NCBI GenBank assembly: GCA_041664205.1
Contig: JBAYLF010000002.1
Span: forward strand, 29,690 to 93,689
Source of the DNA: Minisyncoccota bacterium
GTDB lineage: Bacteria; Patescibacteriota; Minisyncoccia; Phycocordibacterales; JBAYLF01
DNA length: 64,000 nt
Direction of reading: 5' to 3'
A model generated the notes under the pieces. That model made no database searches. It was not told the DNA's origin and was given only the letters and a program-made list of their open reading frames with translations. A program made the position numbers and the translations under genes. Positions 13,785-61,125 of the stretch are shown one piece after another (the stretch's first letter is position 1; each line of letters begins with the position of its first letter).

Positions 13785-14279
13785 CTACTTTTTATTTGAT
13801 AAGTATCTGATAGTTCCTCTATCGTTTTGGATATCGGGTCGGTTTTGGATAATCTTATTTACAGACAATTTTATAAGATCAGCAATCTCGCCTTTTATCT
13901 CTTTTGCGACTTGAACTCTTTCGCTTTCGATCTTTTCTTTTTCCTGTTTTATAAAATCAGAAACATCTACTTTTGCCTTTTCCATCATATCCTGACTTCT
14001 TTCAACATTTAGTTTATTGGCCTTTTCAATAATCTCAACCGCCTCTTTTCTGGCTTGAGCAATTTGTTCCTGATACTCTTTATTTGTTTGTTCCAATCGT
14101 TCCTCTATTTCTTTTCCTTGTTCCAAACTTTTTGCTATCTTATCGCTACGCTCTTTTAATACATTAAATAGTGGCTTTAAAGCAAAAAAATACAGCACCG
14201 AAAAAGCTACTGCAAAATTAAAAGTTTGAGCGAGCAAAAGTCTGATATCGACGTGAAATGTGTTTATTATACTTTCCAT
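13785..14279 (-). CDS. atpF: Fo ATP synthase subunit b
   Basis: 164 aa with an N-terminal TM helix and a long charged coiled coil. Confidence 0.75.
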   Translation of the reverse strand: MESIINTFHVDIRLLLAQTFNFAVAFSVLYFFALKPLFNVLKERSDKIAKSLEQGKEIEERLEQTNKEYQEQIAQARKEAVEIIEKANKLNVERSQDMMEKAKVDVSDFIKQEKEKIESERVQVAKEIKGEIADLIKLSVNKIIQNRPDIQNDRGTIRYLSNKK

Positions 14280-14370
14280 AATAAAAATTAAACAAAATTA
14301 AATAACAGTCTAAAAACGAGAGGCTTAAACTAACTTTAATCACACAAACCTCCCGACATTCAAACTACTA

Positions 14371-14494
14371 AAGAATTTATGAATTTGGATGCAGTTCGAG
14401 GCGCGAGCGAGGATTGCGACCAAGCTGTAGTAAACCTACTGCGCGGAAGCAAACGAGCGACGCAACGAAGAAATGCGCCAAATACATAAATTCT

Positions 14495-14496
<2 letters not shown>
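14371..14496. repeat. 126-bp GC-rich insert with 18-bp terminal inverted repeats, between atpE and atpF
   Basis: Left repeat aagaatttatgaatttgg (14371-14388) and right repeat ccaaatacataaattctt (14479-14496) match 17/18 in inverted orientation. They enclose a 90-bp core of about 55 % GC in a genome of about 30 % GC. The right repeat overlaps the atpE stop codon. Confidence 0.5.
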
Positions 14497-14710
<214 letters not shown>

Positions 14711-14768
14711 TTAATTTAAATTAATAATAAAAATGTTTTAATACTATAAACGATTTCGACTTTTTTTT

Positions 14769-15674: not shown

Positions 15675-15703
15675 TATCTTTTAAAATTTTTCAAAATTTA
15701 AGC

Positions 15704-15737
15704 AAAAAATAAAAAACTTGGGAATATTTCCCAAGTT
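15704..15737 (-). terminator. Rho-independent terminator downstream of the MaoC-like gene
   Basis: Hairpin aacttgggaa-tat-ttcccaagtt, with a T-run on the minus strand. Confidence 0.55.
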
Positions 15738-15754
15738 TAATTTTGTCCGAAAAA

Positions 15755-16285
15755 TTATTGTTTTATTGCCACCCTCGGCAATTTAAATGGTTCGCGAACG
15801 ATTTTTACTCTCGGCGCAAGAATGATTGTTGTTCCTGAAATAACCTCAGAACCTTTTTCATTAATTGCACTACATTTCATTGTTAGCTGAGCCTTCCCTT
15901 TCTTTTCAACGCATTCCACTATAGCAGTGATGGTGTCGCCGATGTAAACCGGAGCTTTAAATTCCAAAGATTGTTTTATTAGAATAGTTCCCAGTCCTGG
16001 AAATTCTGTGCCCATAAGCTTTGAAAATAAAGACATTACAAATGCGCCATGAACTATAGGTCTCTTGAATCTTGTGCCTTCAGCATAAGCCTCATCTAAA
16101 TGAATCGGATTTAAATCACCAGATACTGCTGCAAACATTATAATGTCTTGAGTAGTAAAAAATCTTTTGATCGAATATTTATCTCCGACTGCAATTTCAT
16201 CAGCAGTAACATTGATCGATAAATTAATTCGAGATTGCTCCAAAAATTCTGGAGCGTATGAAACATAATTTTTTGTTTTATTCAT
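15755..16285 (-). CDS. MaoC-like (R)-specific enoyl-CoA hydratase/hotdog-fold dehydratase
   Basis: 176 aa, hotdog-fold signature (DLNPIHLDEAYA...GTRFKRPIVHG). Confidence 0.65.
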   Translation of the reverse strand: MNKTKNYVSYAPEFLEQSRINLSINVTADEIAVGDKYSIKRFFTTQDIIMFAAVSGDLNPIHLDEAYAEGTRFKRPIVHGAFVMSLFSKLMGTEFPGLGTILIKQSLEFKAPVYIGDTITAIVECVEKKGKAQLTMKCSAINEKGSEVISGTTIILAPRVKIVREPFKLPRVAIKQ

Positions 16286-16340
16286 TTTATAATTTTTGTT
16301 CTAATAGCAAGAATAAACAAAGGACGATTTTTTGCAAGCA

Positions 16341-16378
16341 ATAAAAAAGCACCGTGTTGAATTAGCAACACGGTGCTT
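16341..16378 (-). terminator. Rho-independent terminator
   Basis: Hairpin agcaccgtgttg-aattag-caacacggtgct, with a T-run on the minus strand. Confidence 0.55.
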
Positions 16379-16396
16379 GGTTTTTGTTTCTGATTA

Positions 16397-16840
16397 TCAG
16401 TCACATGAAGAAGATCTGCGACTTACCATAGTGATTAATAAAAGAATTCCACCGATGATTAAACGAGCATAATCCCACTGGTAACCTGCACTTCCATAGA
16501 TTAACGCTGTACTTAGTAAAAAAGCGCTACCAACATAAAGACCACGCCTTACTGCAAAGATGATCAGAGGGACTGCTGAAAACGTACTAGTAATCCCTAC
16601 TATACCTAAGAAAATCCCGATCTTTGGTAGAACTGTTTCAGTATTCATCTGCTTTACTGAAAATCCGCTTATAACCCAAATGAATAATACGATGAGTGCG
16701 AAAATGCTGGCAAAAATAATTGTCCATACAACATACCACTCGTAAAGAAAGTGAGTAGATTTAAGATATACTTCTTCTAATGGAAGCTGTGAAATTACAC
16801 ACAACCAAAAGGAATATAAAAAGCTAATGATTAATCCCAT
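16397..16840 (-). CDS. Hypothetical membrane protein
   Basis: 147 aa, 4 predicted TM helices. Confidence 0.4.
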   Translation of the reverse strand: MGLIISFLYSFWLCVISQLPLEEVYLKSTHFLYEWYVVWTIIFASIFALIVLFIWVISGFSVKQMNTETVLPKIGIFLGIVGITSTFSAVPLIIFAVRRGLYVGSAFLLSTALIYGSAGYQWDYARLIIGGILLLITMVSRRSSSCD

Positions 16841-25631: not shown

Positions 25632-25661
25632 AAGTTATATTTTATCAGAATTGCATATTCT

Positions 25662-25735
25662 CTGTCATTCCCGCGCAGGCGGGAATCCAGATTAAACAGA
25701 TATGAACTAGATTCCCGCCTGCGCGGGAATGACAG
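25662..25735. repeat. Palindromic GC-rich repeat element, miniature copy A
   Basis: ctgtcattcccgcgcaggcgggaatccag, then a 16-bp spacer, then ctagattcccgcctgcgcgggaatgacag. The two halves are reverse complements, each a hairpin with an 8-bp stem. Its final ctag supplies the stop codon of the GH gene 25707..26789. Confidence 0.85.
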
Positions 25736-26789
25736 AAGTATTGAATAGATTTCTAGCCTCATTCCAAATTTCTGGCTGATTATGTTTTGTCTTCATCCAA
25801 TACCACCATTCTACGCCCCAAAAATAAAATTTGCTTAAGCCTGTTTGTTTTGCAAACTCAACATCTTCTTTAAACATTTTTAAATTCATTGATTGAGCTT
25901 GTTCTTCCAAAGAAGATTCCATAAGTGGCGCGCCTGTCCAAGGCTCCGCCTGCAATTCTATACAAATAACATCCTTATCAAAAACTTTTTTTATAATCTG
26001 CACCTTTCTCATATAAGTTACAGGATTTAAGAAAGAGTAAGTTCCAAAACCGAAAGTGTCCGTTACGCTCGTCCAAGCATTTCTATACATCGTAATTCCA
26101 ACAATATCGCCGATCTTCGCCGCACCGAACCATGTCGACTGCTCTCCGGAATCAGAAATAATTATTTTCCTTGTCGGATCAAGCGACTTCACCAAAGCAA
26201 CTTCTGCTTTCAGAAAATCATCGCTTCTATAATACCAAGAAGGACATTCACCGAAATAAAATAAAGGTTCATTCTCTACCTGCCAGTTAATGATCGCTTT
26301 TGAACCTTTGTATCTTTCAACAACCTTTGTGACATATTTTAAAAGTTGCACCTGCTGTTCTTCTTTTGATAAACCACTCATCCACGAAGGCGTGTGGCAC
26401 TCAGGCCATCTTCCTGTTTTCAAACCAACAACAAAAATAATTTTTACATTATTTTTTTCTGCCTGCTTAATCTGCCAATCAATATCATCAAAAAAATATT
26501 TATCTTTTTCTGTTTCAACCGCATTCCAATTTGTATGAAGTTTTATATTTTTTGCGCCAAGATCATTTATTATTGCTGAATAAGTTTCTTTCCAATCGAG
26601 TCCGAAATATTCTGCCTGCGACTGTGAAAAATCAACTCCCCACGGAGAATTGCTTGGAGTTTGCGAGCTAGCGCTTAAAGAAAAAGGCCAAGGAATAAAA
26701 AAGTAACCTAAAATTGCCATTATAAAAATAATGACCGCAATACCTAGTGAGATTAACTTTTTTCTATGTAAACCTATATTTTTAAGCAT
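25707..26789 (-). CDS. Membrane-anchored glycoside hydrolase, clan GH-A-like (GH5/GH113-type TIM barrel)
   Basis: 360 aa with an N-terminal TM helix and a WQVENEP motif (the NEP acid/base of clan GH-A). The last 9 codons and the stop are encoded by repeat copy A. Confidence 0.5.
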   Translation of the reverse strand: MLKNIGLHRKKLISLGIAVIIFIMAILGYFFIPWPFSLSASSQTPSNSPWGVDFSQSQAEYFGLDWKETYSAIINDLGAKNIKLHTNWNAVETEKDKYFFDDIDWQIKQAEKNNVKIIFVVGLKTGRWPECHTPSWMSGLSKEEQQVQLLKYVTKVVERYKGSKAIINWQVENEPLFYFGECPSWYYRSDDFLKAEVALVKSLDPTRKIIISDSGEQSTWFGAAKIGDIVGITMYRNAWTSVTDTFGFGTYSFLNPVTYMRKVQIIKKVFDKDVICIELQAEPWTGAPLMESSLEEQAQSMNLKMFKEDVEFAKQTGLSKFYFWGVEWWYWMKTKHNQPEIWNEARNLFNTSVIPAQAGI

Positions 26790-40975: not shown

Positions 40976-41370
40976 TGTCATTCCCGCCTGCCCGCCATGC
41001 AAGGCAAAGCGTTGCAGGCAGGCGAAGGCGGGAATCCAGTATAATCCTCACATGAACAAAAATTATTATGTTTATATATTAGCAAGTAAAAAGAATGGGA
41101 CTTTATATATAGGGGTTACAAATGATTTAGTACGCAGAATTTACGAACATAAAAACGGTTTAATTGAAGGATTTACTAAAAAATACAATATAAAAAATCT
41201 GGTTTATTATGAAGAAACCAATGATATAAACAGTGCCTTAAGTAGAGAAAAAAGTTTAAAAAAATGGAACAGAGAATGGAAACTAAAACTTATTGAGTTA
41301 AATAATCCGGAGTGGAATGATTTGAGTTTAGATTTATAAAACTGGATTCCCGCCTGCGCGGGAATGACAG
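40976..41370. mobile_element. Candidate full-length element: GIY-YIG nuclease gene bracketed by the same GC-rich palindromic termini as the 74-bp miniature repeats
   Basis: Left end tgtcattcccgcc...gaaggcgggaatccag (40976-41039, expanded/degenerate). The GIY-YIG ORF is at 41052-41339. Right end ctggattcccgcctgcgcgggaatgacag (41342-41370), 2 bp after the stop codon. Confidence 0.55.
41052..41339 (+). CDS. GIY-YIG nuclease family protein
   Basis: 95 aa, YYVYILASKKNGTLYIGVTNDLVRRIYEHKNG (GIY-YIG core, YhbQ-like). Confidence 0.8.
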   Translation: MNKNYYVYILASKKNGTLYIGVTNDLVRRIYEHKNGLIEGFTKKYNIKNLVYYEETNDINSALSREKSLKKWNREWKLKLIELNNPEWNDLSLDL

Positions 41371-41382
41371 CACTTTATCGTT

Positions 41383-43908
41383 TTAACTCCTTATCTCTAT
41401 CATAAATCCATCATCTATATCTGGATGGACGAATTTGAATTGTATTATTGAGCCAGCTTTTATCTGTCCGCTGATTATTTTTTCTGCTATTGGTTCTTCT
41501 ATCTTGTCCTGTAAGACTCGGTTCATTGGTCTGGCGCCAAACTTTGGATCAGTTCCTGAAGAAATAAGAATGTTCAAAAGAACATCGTTCACATTGAGAG
41601 TCACACCTTTTTCTTGAAGTCTCTTCGCAAATTTATCAGCCATCAATTTTGCAATCATTTGAAGATTTTCTTGATTTAAAGGATGGAAAAGAATAACCCC
41701 ATCAAAACGGTTTAGAAGTTCTGGTTTGTAAATTCTTTGATTTATCAATGCATCTATAATTTCATCTTTATGAGAAGCTAGATCAAGATGTTTCTCTTCC
41801 ATTCCCCATATCAGATCACTTCCAGCATTTGATGTTGCAATAATTATCATATTTCTCAAATTAACTTTCTTACCACCCATATCTGAGAAAAATCCTTCAT
41901 CTAAAATCTGCAAAAATAAATCTATAACTTCTTTCGATGCTTTTTCAAATTCATCCAAAAGAAGAACGCCGTAACTTTTATCGCGCAAGAATGATGAAAG
42001 AACTCCGCTTTTACTTTGTGCGAATGATCCTATGAGGCGTTCGAGTGCATCGTCGCCACTATACTCTGACATATCTATACGAATAATATTGGATTCGCCT
42101 TTGAAAAATATTTCTGCGAGTGCTTTTGTTGTTTCTGTTTTTCCAACTCCTGTTGGTCCGAGAAATAGAAATGAACCTAGTGGACGCTTTACATTTCGTA
42201 TACCGGCTCTAGCACGACGCAATGCCTGACTTATTGCCACTATCGCTTCATCCTGACCGACAACTCTTCCGTGAAGCAAATTTTCAAGATTTAATAATTT
42301 ATCTTTTTCTTCCCCAAGAATTTCCCCTTGAGGCATTCCGGTTTTTTCTTCTATGATTTTGAGTATGTCATTTTTTTCTATCAAAATTCTTTTTCCGCTT
42401 CTAACCCTAGATACTACTTCTATTAAAATATCTTTTGCTTTATCTTCGACAACTTCAAAATTAAGATAGTTCGATACATTATTTGCAATCTCAGCAATTG
42501 ATTGGAATGTAAATAAGACTCCTTGTTCAGATTCTAGCTTAGACGCTTCGTCTTCTATTATTTTCAAAAGACTTTTTTCATCTCTTTCTAATACACTGAT
42601 CTTTTCAAAATATTGCATAAGCTCAGTATCAGTTTCTACAACTGAATGAAATCTATCGCGACCAGAAAGTGCGATGACTTGAATTCCAGAAGAAATTAAA
42701 AATGGTCTTAACATTTCTGAAATGTTTGAACCGAGATTATGAGCATTCTCCACTAAAGATGGAAAATCATCTATTGCTAAAATAATGTTACCAGACGAGA
42801 CTGCTTCGTTGAAAATTTTTATAATTTCTTGTTCAAAATCATTTTTTTCTTTTAAGGAAGCATTGAAAATTCCTACATTTAAAATCATCACGTGCTTATG
42901 CTCCAATGCTGGCATGATCGTTCCTTCATATATTCTATGAGCTAAAAGCATAATGATCGAAAGGAGTCCTTCTTGATATTCTCCAACAAGAAGAGCATTG
43001 GCTGCGCTTGATTTCAAGAGTATCTTCTCGAGAATAGAAACTTCTTCTTTTCCATAAGAACTCTTTGAATCTACGGCGTGAAAAAGATTATCAGAGCTAA
43101 CATCATGAGCATACTTTTCAAGCGAAAATGCTCTACCATAAGCCCAATCCTTTCCAATACTTGGAATTCTTCCTAAAGAATCTCTACCCCACCAGCGACT
43201 TTTTTCCTTGGCTAAAGTTTTGTATCTAGAAATCCATTCTGTTGCGCCTAGAAAATCGCTCTTTTGAATGCCTAACTTTAGTAAAAAATTTGAAAACTCA
43301 CCATCGTGGCTATAAATTGTTTCCGCAAAATCAATTATAGAAACGGGATGACGTTCTTCTATGATCTCACTTTGTTCTATTGAAAAAGAGAACTTAGACA
43401 ATACGATCTTTCTTGCATCAAAAAATTCTTTGAGCTCGTTGTCAGAAATTTTCAAGCGAAACATTATTTCTCTACCATAAGAAGAAAGGATGAATTTTTT
43501 TGTTACATCATCTTCGTCTCCAACTAAAATAATTTCTGCAACATCAAATGATATATTTCTGTTATTTTTTTTCATTCTAAACTCTGGCATAACAAAGTCG
43601 ATGTCTTTGTAAATATATGAGTTATAAAAAAATTTAGGAAGAATAGCCATCATATAGATCGGAAAAGCTAGCAAGCTTACGGCTTCTATTTTTGAAAGCA
43701 GATTTTGATTTATAGAAATTAATTTAAAATAATCTCCGACTATAGCAAAAACCACAGCGAGAAGAACGAAACTCGATATTTGTCGAATTATATTTCGCGT
43801 TTTTTGAGAAAAGCGTTTTTCTAATTCAATAGCGCTGTTGTATTCTAACGCAACAGAAACTAGATCTTCATATTTTAAAACGCTTTTTTGATTTAATAAA
43901 TTTAACAT
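41383..43908 (-). CDS. AAA+ ATPase of the ClpA/ClpB/ClpC family, atypical (membrane-associated N-terminus, degenerate first AAA module)
   Basis: 841 aa. The C-terminal D2 module is intact (GPTGVGKTE, sensor/arginine finger, ClpB_D2-small-like end). The N-terminus has 2-3 hydrophobic helices. The D1-like region lacks a canonical Walker A. Confidence 0.65.
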   Translation of the reverse strand: MLNLLNQKSVLKYEDLVSVALEYNSAIELEKRFSQKTRNIIRQISSFVLLAVVFAIVGDYFKLISINQNLLSKIEAVSLLAFPIYMMAILPKFFYNSYIYKDIDFVMPEFRMKKNNRNISFDVAEIILVGDEDDVTKKFILSSYGREIMFRLKISDNELKEFFDARKIVLSKFSFSIEQSEIIEERHPVSIIDFAETIYSHDGEFSNFLLKLGIQKSDFLGATEWISRYKTLAKEKSRWWGRDSLGRIPSIGKDWAYGRAFSLEKYAHDVSSDNLFHAVDSKSSYGKEEVSILEKILLKSSAANALLVGEYQEGLLSIIMLLAHRIYEGTIMPALEHKHVMILNVGIFNASLKEKNDFEQEIIKIFNEAVSSGNIILAIDDFPSLVENAHNLGSNISEMLRPFLISSGIQVIALSGRDRFHSVVETDTELMQYFEKISVLERDEKSLLKIIEDEASKLESEQGVLFTFQSIAEIANNVSNYLNFEVVEDKAKDILIEVVSRVRSGKRILIEKNDILKIIEEKTGMPQGEILGEEKDKLLNLENLLHGRVVGQDEAIVAISQALRRARAGIRNVKRPLGSFLFLGPTGVGKTETTKALAEIFFKGESNIIRIDMSEYSGDDALERLIGSFAQSKSGVLSSFLRDKSYGVLLLDEFEKASKEVIDLFLQILDEGFFSDMGGKKVNLRNMIIIATSNAGSDLIWGMEEKHLDLASHKDEIIDALINQRIYKPELLNRFDGVILFHPLNQENLQMIAKLMADKFAKRLQEKGVTLNVNDVLLNILISSGTDPKFGARPMNRVLQDKIEEPIAEKIISGQIKAGSIIQFKFVHPDIDDGFMIEIRS

Positions 43909-45189: not shown

Positions 45190-45264
45190 TTGTCATTCCC
45201 GCGCAGGCGGGAATCTAGTTTCTTATTTCAACGGTCTGGATTCCCGCCTGCGCGGGAATGACAG
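45190..45264. repeat. Palindromic GC-rich repeat element, miniature copy C
   Basis: ttgtcattcccgcgcaggcgggaatctag, 17-bp spacer, ctggattcccgcctgcgcgggaatgacag. Lies 14 bp downstream of the serS stop. Confidence 0.85.
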
Positions 45265-50991: not shown

Positions 50992-51066
50992 CTGTCATTC
51001 CCGCGAAGGCGGGAATCCAGACAGTGTAGGTAAAAACCTAGATTCCCGCCTTCGCGGGAATGACAA
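50992..51066. repeat. Palindromic GC-rich repeat element, miniature copy D
   Basis: ctgtcattcccgcgaaggcgggaatccag, 17-bp spacer, ctagattcccgccttcgcgggaatgacaa. The loop variant gaag/cttc changes compensatorily in both halves. Lies 3 bp after the topA stop. Confidence 0.85.
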
Positions 51067-52550: not shown

Positions 52551-52634
52551 GCCGCGGTGGCGGAATTGGTAGACGCAATAGACTCAAAATCTATCGATCG
52601 CAAGGTCATGAGAGTTCGATTCTCTCCCGCGGCA
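52551..52634 (+). tRNA. tRNA-Leu (anticodon CAA), type II with long variable arm; CCA not encoded
   Basis: Acceptor GCCGCGG/CCGCGGC, D-arm GGCGGAATTGGTAGACGC, anticodon loop CTCAAAA, T-arm GAGAGTTCGATTCTCTC, discriminator A. Confidence 0.8.
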
Positions 52635-52681
52635 CATTATAAAAAAACCTGCAATAAGCAGGTTTTTTTATAATGTGCCGC
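52629..52681 (+). terminator. 53-bp perfect palindrome (24-bp arms) overlapping the tRNA-Leu 3' end; long-stem terminator
   Basis: gcggcacattataaaaaaacctgc-aataa-gcaggtttttttataatgtgccgc. Confidence 0.6.
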
Positions 52682-52811
52682 GAAGCATTGTGCCTTCGCA
52701 CTTCGCGTGAGAGAATCAAAAAACCTTTCTCATAATTTAAAATTGACATAATTTTTTAATTATGTCACTATTCTATTCAGACCGTTCGATAAACAATCAA
52801 ATAAAATCAGT

Positions 52812-61052: not shown

Positions 61053-61125
61053 CTGTCATTCCCGCGAAGGCGGGAATCCAGATTAAACAGAGATAAACTA
61101 GATTCCCGCCTTCGCGGGAATGACA
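61053..61125. repeat. Palindromic GC-rich repeat element, miniature copy E
   Basis: ctgtcattcccgcgaaggcgggaatccag, spacer attaaacagagataaa (near-identical to the copy A spacer), ctagattcccgccttcgcgggaatgacaa. Lies 11 bp beyond the cysteine desulfurase stop. Confidence 0.85.

What the first reader, a model, noticed from the sequence alone, without database searches (positions are those of the whole stretch)
14371..14496. Inverted-repeat-flanked GC-rich 126-bp insert inside the ATP synthase operon, directly after atpE
The atpE-atpF spacer is unusually long (215 bp). It contains a 90-bp core of about 55 % GC bounded by 18-bp inverted repeats (aagaatttatgaatttgg / ccaaatacataaattctt, 17/18 complementary). 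The right repeat overlaps the atpE stop codon. This is either a second, unrelated MITE-like insertion or a structured intra-operon RNA element. A stable stem-loop immediately 3' of the c-subunit gene could give differential mRNA stability, favouring the high c-subunit stoichiometry; a stabilising stem-loop after atpE seems plausible by analogy with other operons, though I am not certain of a specific precedent. The element is unrelated in sequence to the GIY-YIG-associated repeats.
Basis: seen in the sequence. Interest (0 to 1): 0.55.

Follow-up and report, generated by a model that had tools for sequence, protein, structure and literature searches.

The report
Mobile palindromic hairpin inserted after atpE
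The GC-rich, inverted-repeat-flanked segment after the ATP synthase c-subunit gene is one copy of an apparently undescribed family of small palindromic "selfish" DNA elements scattered through CPR/Patescibacteria genomes; it landed in the atpE stop codon, next to the operon's own conserved hairpin, and is not an ATP-synthase-specific regulator.

Summary
Arms 14369-14388 and 14478-14497 are 19/20 complementary, with 89 nt between them. The core is 57-58% GC in a 34% GC window. The segment folds as one long hairpin of about -47 kcal/mol (z about -7).

It is an insertion. Eight relatives have atpE-atpF spacers of 59-83 bp, against 215 bp here. Removing the 125-bp element plus one flanking TA leaves 88 nt and restores "AAA TAG TAG TTT", the sequence three relatives carry at that position.

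The 93-bp core recurs at 90-94% identity at unrelated loci in other CPR genomes:
- after the stop codon of a gene upstream of an RND pump gene (L153);
- 7 nt upstream of a DHFR gene (L154);
- in frame inside two enzyme genes, seen only in protein translations.

Between copies the arms are only 55-72% identical, yet they stay complementary within each copy. The element occurs in both orientations relative to transcription.

So it is a MITE- or RPE-like palindromic element, not an atp-specific RNA. It is conserved with covariation in all relatives and starts at the atpE stop codon.

Still open: copy number per genome, the mobilising enzyme, and any effect on the operon.

The parts
14371..14495 (.). 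Inserted palindromic element proper (125 bp): two about 18-nt arms plus a GC-rich core. Co-transcribed with the atp operon, whose mRNA sense is the minus strand.
   Evidence: Inverted repeat; hairpin fold; absent from relatives' spacers; homologous copies L153:10488-10624 and L154:1621-1752.
14369..14370 (.). Left flanking TA, inferred to be one copy of a TA target-site duplication. On the mRNA it is also the first two bases of the native hairpin (UAG...).
   Evidence: Empty-site reconstruction. TA flanks can also be parsed in L153 and L154, though the ends are fuzzy.
14496..14497 (.). Right flanking TA, the inferred second copy of the duplication. It supplies the T and A of the present atpE stop codon TAA (14497-14495 on the minus strand); the third base comes from the element's end.
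   Evidence: Read directly from the sequence. The reconstruction gives AAA TAG TAG TTT, as in L121, L151 and L152.
14369..14388 (.). Left arm of the inverted repeat, 20 nt including TA.
   Evidence: Arms are only 55-72% identical between copies but 81-95% complementary within each copy.
14478..14497 (.). Right arm of the inverted repeat, 20 nt including TA. It overlaps the atpE stop codon.
14387..14479 (.). Conserved GC-rich core (93 bp, 58% GC). It is an imperfect palindrome made of two conserved boxes either side of a variable apex.
   Evidence: 87/93, 86/93 and 84/93 identity among the window, L153 and L154. Translations of the boxes recur in P0022-P0026, P0028, P0029, P0031 and P0032.
14303..14370 (-). 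Native hairpin of the atp operon, not part of the insert. It has a 9-12-bp outer stem that in relatives begins with the atpE stop codon, an internal loop and an 11-bp inner stem.
   Evidence: -21.9 kcal/mol, z = -5.3. The same architecture is in all 8 relatives. RNAalifold on 6 sequences gives 21 pairs, 8 with compensatory changes.
14495..14707 (-). atpE (c subunit, 70 aa). The C-terminus ...AFSIK* is unchanged by the insertion.
13785..14279 (-). atpF (b subunit, 164 aa), the next gene downstream in the operon.

Best explanation
The segment is one copy of a dispersed, non-coding palindromic (foldback) DNA element about 125-135 bp long, found in CPR/Patescibacteria genomes. It has two arms of roughly 18-20 nt that need only be complementary, and a 93-bp GC-rich core with two sequence-conserved boxes and a variable apex. 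In this genome it inserted at the TA of an ancestral atpE stop codon (TAG), one base upstream of the operon's native post-atpE hairpin, probably duplicating the TA. The element's first base turns TA into a new TAA stop. AtpE therefore keeps its C-terminus and the native hairpin stays intact, which would explain why the insertion is tolerated. The element is now transcribed within the atp mRNA and should fold into a hairpin of about -47 kcal/mol whose base holds the stop codon. Shown: it is an insertion relative to relatives, and it belongs to a family present at unrelated sites, in both orientations and inside ORFs. Inferred: the TA duplication and transposition of the MITE, Correia or IS630 type, or some other hairpin-recognising mechanism. 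Also inferred: the effect on the operon is neutral or a side effect, such as an extra 3'-exonuclease barrier or an RNase III-type cleavage site between atpE and atpF.
For: (1) Relatives with 46-51% AtpF identity have atpE-atpF spacers of 67, 83, 59, 61, 79, 61, 61 and 61 bp, against 215 bp here. 215 - 127 = 88. (2) Deleting 14371-14495 plus one TA gives AAA TAG TAG TTT GAA..., matching AAA TAG TAG TTT T.. in L121, L151 and L152, and restores a hairpin that starts at the stop codon as in all relatives. (3) A six-frame translation of the element, used as a protein query, found the core in other CPR genomes. The DNA of two hits shows 90-94% core identity and exactly 89 nt between arms in all three copies. 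(4) The contexts are unrelated. L153 has it 2 nt after the stop codon of a 576-aa gene and 13 nt before an RND pump gene. L154 has it 7 nt before the DHFR ATG. P0024 carries it inside a His_Phos_1 domain and P0025 inside an NTP_transferase domain, both in frame and splitting the Pfam match into two stretches. P0026 and P0028 carry it as N-terminal extensions. (5) Both orientations relative to the host mRNA occur: window and L153 one way, P0024, P0025 and L154 the other. (6) Arms covary: 8 of about 46 pairs show compensatory changes among only 3 copies. (7) It is not coding. The ATG of the 36-aa ORF is not conserved in L153 or L154. (8) No Rfam family matches, and no promoter-like or terminator-like site falls in the spacer.
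Against: No second copy was found in the same genome. There is none in the 64-kb window, none in the 18 kb of L153 or in L154, and no other protein of the source MAG contains its translation. The multi-copy hallmark of MITEs is therefore unproven. The rest of the source genome could not be searched. My two large DNA scans used the arm sequence, which proved to be the variable part. No transposase is associated: ten selected ORFs near repeats in the window gave none. A TA duplication rests on a single reconstructed empty site, and the ends of the other two copies are fuzzy. The conservation pattern, core above arms, is the reverse of classical MITEs, where the terminal repeats are the most conserved part. 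No expression data exist, so any effect on atp mRNA is inference.
Confidence: 0.72

Rival explanations
1. The insert is a host-selected intra-operon RNA element. It would act as a stabilising or processing stem-loop 3' of atpE that raises c-subunit output relative to b.
For: The fold on the mRNA-sense strand is very stable (-47 kcal/mol, z = -7.0) and its base holds the stop codon. This mimics the native arrangement in relatives, where the stop codon sits in the base of a conserved hairpin. The L153 copy also sits right after a stop codon inside an operon, in the same orientation.
Against: It is absent from all 8 relatives' atp operons. The operon already keeps its native hairpin 1 nt downstream. 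The same core occurs upstream of DHFR and in frame inside enzyme genes, in the opposite orientation. Both strands fold equally well, so the palindrome is a DNA-level property.
Confidence: 0.08
2. The core is an independent functional structured RNA or ssDNA module, such as a small ribozyme, a protein-binding RNA or a recombination site. On this reading it is conserved for its own activity and spreads horizontally, rather than being a transposase-mobilised MITE.
For: The core is 90-94% identical across hosts of 34, 42.5 and 48% GC, while the arms keep only their pairing. Two sequence boxes are conserved even in subfamilies with a different apex. Copy number per genome looks low.
Against: No Rfam family matches, including the known self-cleaving ribozymes held in Rfam. 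It occurs in both orientations and is translated in frame within conserved enzymes, which does not suit a strand-specific RNA gene. The core pairs show almost no covariation because they hardly vary.
Confidence: 0.12
3. The long hairpin is a local expansion of the operon's own post-atpE hairpin, or a chance or assembly palindrome, and not something that arrived from elsewhere.
For: The insert shares the 8-mer ATTTGGCG with the L119 native hairpin, and ATTTGG with L116. Like the native hairpin, it starts at the stop codon.
Against: The native hairpin is still present intact right after the insert. Near-identical cores exist at non-atp loci in other genomes. The sequence was recovered by two different assemblies. 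I estimate about 0.5 chance 8-mer matches for the number of comparisons made.
Confidence: 0.03

Closest known systems
Rickettsia palindromic elements (RPEs)
   Same: Both are palindromic repeats of about 100-150 bp with no coding capacity and no known transposase. Both are found in intergenic regions and also inserted in frame inside unrelated housekeeping genes, where they are translated as extra peptide segments (review PMC10969869, read). The in-frame cases here are P0024 and P0025. Both families are shared across species of one lineage.
   Different: This element has no sequence relationship to Rickettsia and sits in a different phylum (CPR/Patescibacteria). It has a GC-rich core in AT-rich hosts. 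RPEs reach dozens of copies per genome, whereas only one copy per sampled region was seen here.
Correia (NEMIS/CREE) elements of Neisseria, IS630/mariner-type MITEs
   Same: Both are about 100-155 bp with terminal inverted repeats and insert at TA with TA duplication (the Correia TA duplication is from my own knowledge). Both are often co-transcribed with neighbouring genes. The paired repeats of Correia elements form a hairpin that RNase III cleaves, changing transcript levels (PMC10969869). This is the best model for how the window copy could affect atp mRNA.
   Different: Correia terminal repeats are the conserved part and the elements number over 100 per genome. Here the arms vary and the core is conserved, and multi-copy status is unproven. 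No promoter-like site lies in the spacer. IHF sites were not looked for. RNase III cleavage is untested.
ERIC/IRU elements of enterobacteria and Yersinia
   Same: Both are imperfect palindromes of about 127 bp located in transcribed intergenic regions, including inside operons and at the 3' ends of genes. ERIC insertion at the 3' end of Yersinia genes alters mRNA decay through RNase E (PMC10969869).
   Different: The sequence and host range are unrelated, and no Rfam or blastn match was found.
Intercistronic stabiliser hairpins (for example the Rhodobacter puf operon hairpin, or REP in malE-malF; from my own knowledge)
   Same: A stable stem-loop between cistrons of an operon with unequal subunit stoichiometry. 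This fits the native hairpin at 14303-14370, which is conserved with covariation directly after atpE.
   Different: The insert is not conserved at this position. The function of the native hairpin is itself untested.
REP/REPIN elements mobilised by RAYT (IS200/IS605-like) transposases
   Same: Both form long hairpins from two inverted halves, and the enzyme recognises structure plus specific internal sequence rather than the termini. That would fit the pattern of conserved core and variable arms.
   Different: REPINs number tens to hundreds per genome and co-occur with a RAYT gene. Neither feature was seen or could be tested here.

Membership tests
MITE (miniature inverted-repeat transposable element) | Small (under about 500 bp), non-coding, with terminal inverted repeats | tested here: met
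   125 bp with 18-20-nt arms at 19/20. The candidate ORF's start codon is not conserved in other copies.
MITE (miniature inverted-repeat transposable element) | Target-site duplication flanking the element | tested here: inconclusive
   TA on both sides. The empty site reconstructed with a single TA matches relatives. TA is palindromic, so it cannot be told apart from a 20-nt repeat without a true empty allele. The L153 and L154 ends can be parsed as TA-flanked but are fuzzy.
MITE (miniature inverted-repeat transposable element) | Multiple copies within one genome | tested here: inconclusive
   One copy in the 64-kb window, one in the 18 kb of L153, one in the 2.6 kb of L154. At least 10 distinct loci were found across metagenomes.
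MITE (miniature inverted-repeat transposable element) | Terminal repeats shared with an autonomous IS that supplies the transposase | tested here: inconclusive
   The arm 19- and 20-mers gave only single chance hits in GTDB representatives, IMG/VR and JGI contigs. No transposase was found among ten ORFs checked in the window. The arms vary between copies, so this search was weak.
RPE-like palindromic element | Palindromic repeat found both intergenically and in frame inside conserved protein-coding genes | tested here: met
   P0024 (His_Phos_1) and P0025 (NTP_transferase) carry the translated core between two halves of their Pfam domain. The intergenic copies are the window, L153 and L154.
RPE-like palindromic element | Sequence homology to one of the Rickettsia RPE families | not tested
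   No RPE sequences were available in the tools. Homology is not expected given the different phylum and GC content.
Correia / IS630-type TA-inserting MITE | Conserved terminal repeats as the best-conserved part, with a TA duplication | tested here: not met
   Arms are 55-72% identical between copies against 90-94% for the core. TA flanks are compatible.
Correia / IS630-type TA-inserting MITE | RNase III processing of the hairpin formed by the paired repeats in transcripts | not testable with these tools
   A near-perfect duplex of about 20 bp at the hairpin base is predicted. No transcript data are available.
Intrinsic (Rho-independent) terminator | Short GC-rich hairpin with a 3-8-nt loop followed by a U-tract | tested here: not met
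   No terminator-like site was found in 14280-14500 on either strand. The stem is followed by AGUAGUUUGAAUG, not a U-run.
Known atp-operon or other Rfam RNA motif (for example the cyanobacterial ATPC motif, recalled from memory) | Match to a curated covariance model | tested here: not met
   The only hits are tRNAs elsewhere in the window. Nothing with E below 0.3 falls in 14200-14760, and nothing matches the copy in L154 or the relatives' spacers.
Operon-specific stabiliser or processing hairpin conserved at an orthologous position | Present at the same position in related operons, with covariation | tested here: not met
   The insert is absent from 8 of 8 relatives. The feature is met instead by the adjacent native hairpin 14303-14370.

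The most novel reading that the evidence does not exclude
The family would be a new type of horizontally spreading hairpin element of CPR bacteria, not a degenerate IS derivative. Its two conserved GC-rich boxes, rather than its termini, would form the recognition module for a structure-specific enzyme that is still unidentified, such as a HUH/RAYT-like enzyme, an integrase-like enzyme or an RNA-level activity. It would persist at low copy number by inserting at gene boundaries, at stop and start codons, and in frame within genes of highly streamlined genomes. A less likely variant of this reading is that the window copy has been co-opted as a second barrier or processing hairpin that tunes atpBE against atpFHAG expression.
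Probability: 0.15. Interest if true: 0.7.

Novelty: new member of a known kind. Interest (0 to 1): 0.5.

Why it matters
CPR/Patescibacteria genomes are tiny and streamlined, and I found no paper in the searched library that links MITE or palindromic-element terms with CPR. This family of GC-rich foldback elements moves between CPR lineages of very different base composition. It settles on stop codons, in start-codon-proximal spacers and in frame inside enzymes. That shows selfish DNA and horizontal exchange reach even the core bioenergetic operon of these organisms. The family also offers a marker for gene flow among uncultivated lineages and a source of peptide insertions in their proteins. 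It is a practical annotation hazard as well, because it generates spurious ORFs and false N-terminal extensions (P0022, P0023, P0026, P0028). Separately, the conserved hairpin that engulfs the atpE stop codon in this clade is a concrete, testable candidate for setting the c:b subunit expression ratio.

Tried and rejected
- **Arm-based DNA scans.** I searched AAAGAATTTATGWATTTGG in GTDB representative genomes (62 single hits), an 18-mer variant in IMG/VR (51 single hits) and the 20-mer in JGI metagenome contigs (23 single hits). All were chance matches of about 20-25 nt with no core and no paired arm. In hindsight the arms are the variable part. The source genome is in neither collection, because its own locus was not returned.
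- **Core patterns in IMG/VR.** Three patterns gave 0 hits.
- **blastn of the element.** PLSDB plasmids gave no match. INPHARED phages gave only a 30-nt chance match in E. coli phages.
- **Rfam.** Nothing at gathering threshold or at E up to 10.
- **Small-protein hypothesis.** The 36-aa hydrophobic ORF MYLAHFF..., 8 nt after the atpE stop, was rejected because its ATG lies in the variable arm and is absent in L153 and L154.
- **SRP, 6S or other RNA gene.** Rejected: no covariance-model match, and the element is found inside ORFs.
- **Arms derived from the target site.** Rejected: arms of different copies are recognisably homologous (AGAAYTTAYG..TTTSGG), and nothing similar exists in relatives' atp spacers.
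- **Logan contig break as evidence of a repeat.** Rejected: the two contigs are separated by a 7-nt gap with no overlap, so it looks like a coverage drop at the hairpin.
- **Empty-site allele among cluster members.** P0039 turned out to be only a truncated gene call.
- **Transposase near the element.** None among ten selected ORFs. One is a GIY-YIG protein that belongs to the other repeat family.
- **Shared orthologues.** None between the window and L153 or L154 that could measure host divergence.

Full report
**Setting.** The window is 34% GC. Its exact AtpF protein is named in NCBI as coming from a Candidatus Paceibacterota (CPR/Patescibacteria) MAG, and the same locus lies on a 218-kb ENA contig. 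The atp operon is on the minus strand: atpB 15674-14769, atpE 14707-14495, atpF 14279-13785, then atpH, atpA and atpG.

**Observation.**
- The atpE-atpF spacer is 215 bp (14280-14494).
- The inverted repeat is confirmed and slightly longer than reported: arms 14369-14388 and 14478-14497, 20 nt, 19/20 complementary, 89 nt apart. The right arm contains the atpE stop codon (14495-14497).
- The interior is 57-58% GC against 34% for the window.
- The whole segment folds as a single long imperfect hairpin on either strand: -47.0 kcal/mol (z -7.0) in mRNA sense and -49.8 (z -7.1) on the other strand.
- Inverted repeats this good are expected 0.1 times per 64 kb.
- A separate Logan assembly of run SRR6484324 carries the same sequence.

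**It is an insertion.**
- The closest AtpF homologues are only 46-51% identical. I fetched eight distinct relatives' operons.
- Their atpE-atpF spacers are 59-83 bp.
- Every one begins, at the stop codon itself, with a conserved two-tier hairpin: TA[AG]TA[AGT]TTT..C / internal loop / CTGYYCC...GGGRCAG / ..AGATTATTA. RNAalifold on six of them gives 21 pairs, 8 with compensatory changes.
- The window still has this native hairpin directly after the insert, at 14303-14370 (UAGUAGUUUGAA...UUUAGACUGUUA; -21.9 kcal/mol, z -5.3).
- The insert is flanked by TA on both sides (14369-14370 and 14496-14497). Removing 14371-14495 plus one TA leaves an 88-nt spacer that reads AAA TAG TAG TTT GAA... Relatives L121, L151 and L152 read AAA TAG TAG TTT T.. 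at the same place.
- So the element entered at the TA of an ancestral TAG stop codon. Its first base recreates a stop (TAA), AtpE keeps its ...AFSIK C-terminus, and the native hairpin is untouched.

**It belongs to a dispersed family.**
- Nothing else in the window resembles it.
- Arm-based scans of GTDB representatives, IMG/VR and JGI contigs returned only chance single matches.
- The decisive step was to translate the element in six frames and use the result as a protein query, because small repeats often get swallowed by called ORFs.
- This recovered the core in at least nine other loci. DNA for two of them was retrievable.
- L153:10488-10624 comes from Parcubacteria bacterium GW2011_GWA2_47_16 (48% GC). 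L154:1621-1752 comes from a Logan contig (42.5% GC).
- The 93-bp core (window 14387-14479) is 87/93, 86/93 and 84/93 identical among the three. The 18-nt arms are only 10-13/18 identical.
- Each copy's own arms remain 81-95% complementary, and all three copies have exactly 89 nt between arms.
- 8 of about 46 pairs show compensatory changes.
- Protein-level members show the same two conserved boxes (DAVRGASEACDQ / ...EQTSEATKKCA in one pair of frames) with a variable apex.

**Contexts.**
- In L153 the element starts 2 nt after the TAA of a 576-aa gene and ends 13 nt before the true start of an RND pump gene. This is again an intercistronic spacer, in the same orientation relative to the mRNA as in the window. 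P0022 is a spurious antisense ORF.
- In L154 it ends 7 nt before the DHFR start codon, in the opposite orientation.
- In P0024 (Magasanikbacteria, histidine phosphatase) and P0025 (Taylorbacteria, nucleotidyltransferase) it lies in frame inside the catalytic domain and splits the Pfam match in two.
- In P0026 and P0028 it forms false N-terminal extensions.
- Four of the six frames are open through the core.
- The 36-aa ORF in the window copy is not conserved.
- No Rfam family matches any copy.

**Interpretation.**
- Together these features describe a selfish palindromic element of the MITE/RPE kind:
  - an insertion relative to relatives;
  - unrelated loci and both orientations;
  - in-frame occupancy of ORFs;
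  - no coding capacity;
  - arms that keep their pairing.
- They do not describe an atp-specific RNA.
- The nearest analogues are Rickettsia palindromic elements (in-frame insertions, no transposase known), and Correia and ERIC elements (TA insertion, co-transcription, hairpins cleaved by RNase III or exposing RNase E sites; PMC10969869).
- It differs from classical MITEs in two ways. The core is more conserved than the arms, and no second copy per genome has been seen. That test was incomplete, because the rest of the source genome was out of reach.
- I therefore do not file it as a proven MITE. I file it as a new family of RPE/MITE-like palindromic elements.

**How it probably works here.**
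- Shown: it is transcribed territory, lying between two cistrons of one operon. No promoter-like or terminator-like site was found in the spacer.
- Inferred: the mRNA forms two tandem hairpins, the insert and then the native one, together -68.9 kcal/mol.
- Ribosomes terminating at the TAA must melt the outer part of the about 20-bp near-perfect duplex at the base of the insert.
- By analogy with Correia elements, that duplex is a plausible RNase III substrate. Alternatively it could be an additional 3'-exonuclease barrier.
- The most economical reading is a tolerated passenger whose position was filtered by selection, since the stop codon and native hairpin are preserved.
That hairpin is conserved across the clade and covaries.

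**Literature.** I found no paper combining palindromic-element or MITE terms with CPR, Patescibacteria or Parcubacteria in the searchable library, and no hit for a post-atpE stabilising stem-loop. Absence from this library is not proof of novelty.

**Verdict.**
- The MITE-like insertion reading is supported. The atp-specific RNA reading is not supported for this segment, but it is supported for its neighbour.
- Novelty: a new member (family) of a known kind.
- Interest is moderate at 0.5. It is an unreported, cross-lineage element in streamlined CPR genomes with RPE-like in-frame insertions, plus a conserved stop-codon hairpin in the atp operon. The mechanism of mobility and any phenotype remain unknown.

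Noticed in passing
window 14303-14370 (minus strand); L116, L117, L119, L121, L123, L150, L151, L152 atpE-atpF spacers: A conserved two-tier RNA hairpin whose 5' base is the atpE stop codon itself. It is present in all 8 relatives and in the window. 8 of 21 pairs show compensatory changes, there is no U-tract after it, and no Rfam family matches. It is a candidate intercistronic stabiliser or translation-uncoupling element that could set the c:b expression ratio.
   Followed up: partly
window 25661-25736, 45191-45263, 50993-51065, 61054-61125; half copy 41339-41386; ORF 41052-41339 (+): A separate GC-rich repeat family (TGTCATTCCCGCGMAGGCGGGAATCYAG) occurs as inverted pairs forming hairpins. 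One half-copy abuts a 95-aa GIY-YIG domain ORF (Pfam E = 5.6e-17). It is unrelated in sequence to the element studied here.
   Followed up: partly
window 15675-16400, compared with L117, L119, L121, L150, L151: The window's atp operon has no atpI-like gene (PF09527 ATPase_gene1) upstream of atpB, although five relatives do. A MaoC-like dehydratase gene sits there instead.
   Followed up: no
L121:2492-2613, L122:2492-2613, L151:1932-2112: These relatives have atpF-atpH spacers of 120-180 bp, against 2-16 bp in the window and most other relatives fetched. AtpF is called 20 aa shorter in L151. This may be another insertion or a gene-call problem.
   Followed up: no
L153:9991-10645: The deposited ORF P0022 (UX89_C0019G0026) is a spurious antisense call spanning the element. 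The RND pump gene really starts near L153:10482 (MFNKIISWSL...), about 490 nt upstream of its called start. Elements of this family generate false ORFs and false N-terminal extensions, as also seen in P0023, P0026 and P0028.
   Followed up: partly
P0024 vs P0038 (Magasanikbacteria His_Phos_1 proteins): The two variants are identical outside the element but differ at 10 residues within the roughly 36-aa element-encoded segment. The element evolves much faster than its host gene, or it was replaced or converted by another family member.
   Followed up: partly
window 52628-52682, next to tRNA 52551-52634: A perfect 25-nt inverted repeat (CGCGGCACATTATAAAAAAACCTGC / GCAGGTTTTTTTATAATGTGCCGCG) overlaps the 3' end of a tRNA gene. 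It may be a terminator or an integration-site remnant.
   Followed up: no
L126 end / L002 start (Logan SRR6484324), corresponding to about window 14402-14416: The Logan assembly breaks inside the element, leaving a 7-nt gap with no overlap between the contigs. This suggests a coverage drop at the GC-rich hairpin rather than a repeat-induced branch.
   Followed up: yes
window 14343-14218 (minus strand): A GGGAGG that looks like a Shine-Dalgarno sequence in front of a 41-aa GTG ORF is in fact the 5' strand of the native hairpin's inner stem (GGGAGG/CCUCUC). The ORF is probably not real.
   Followed up: partly
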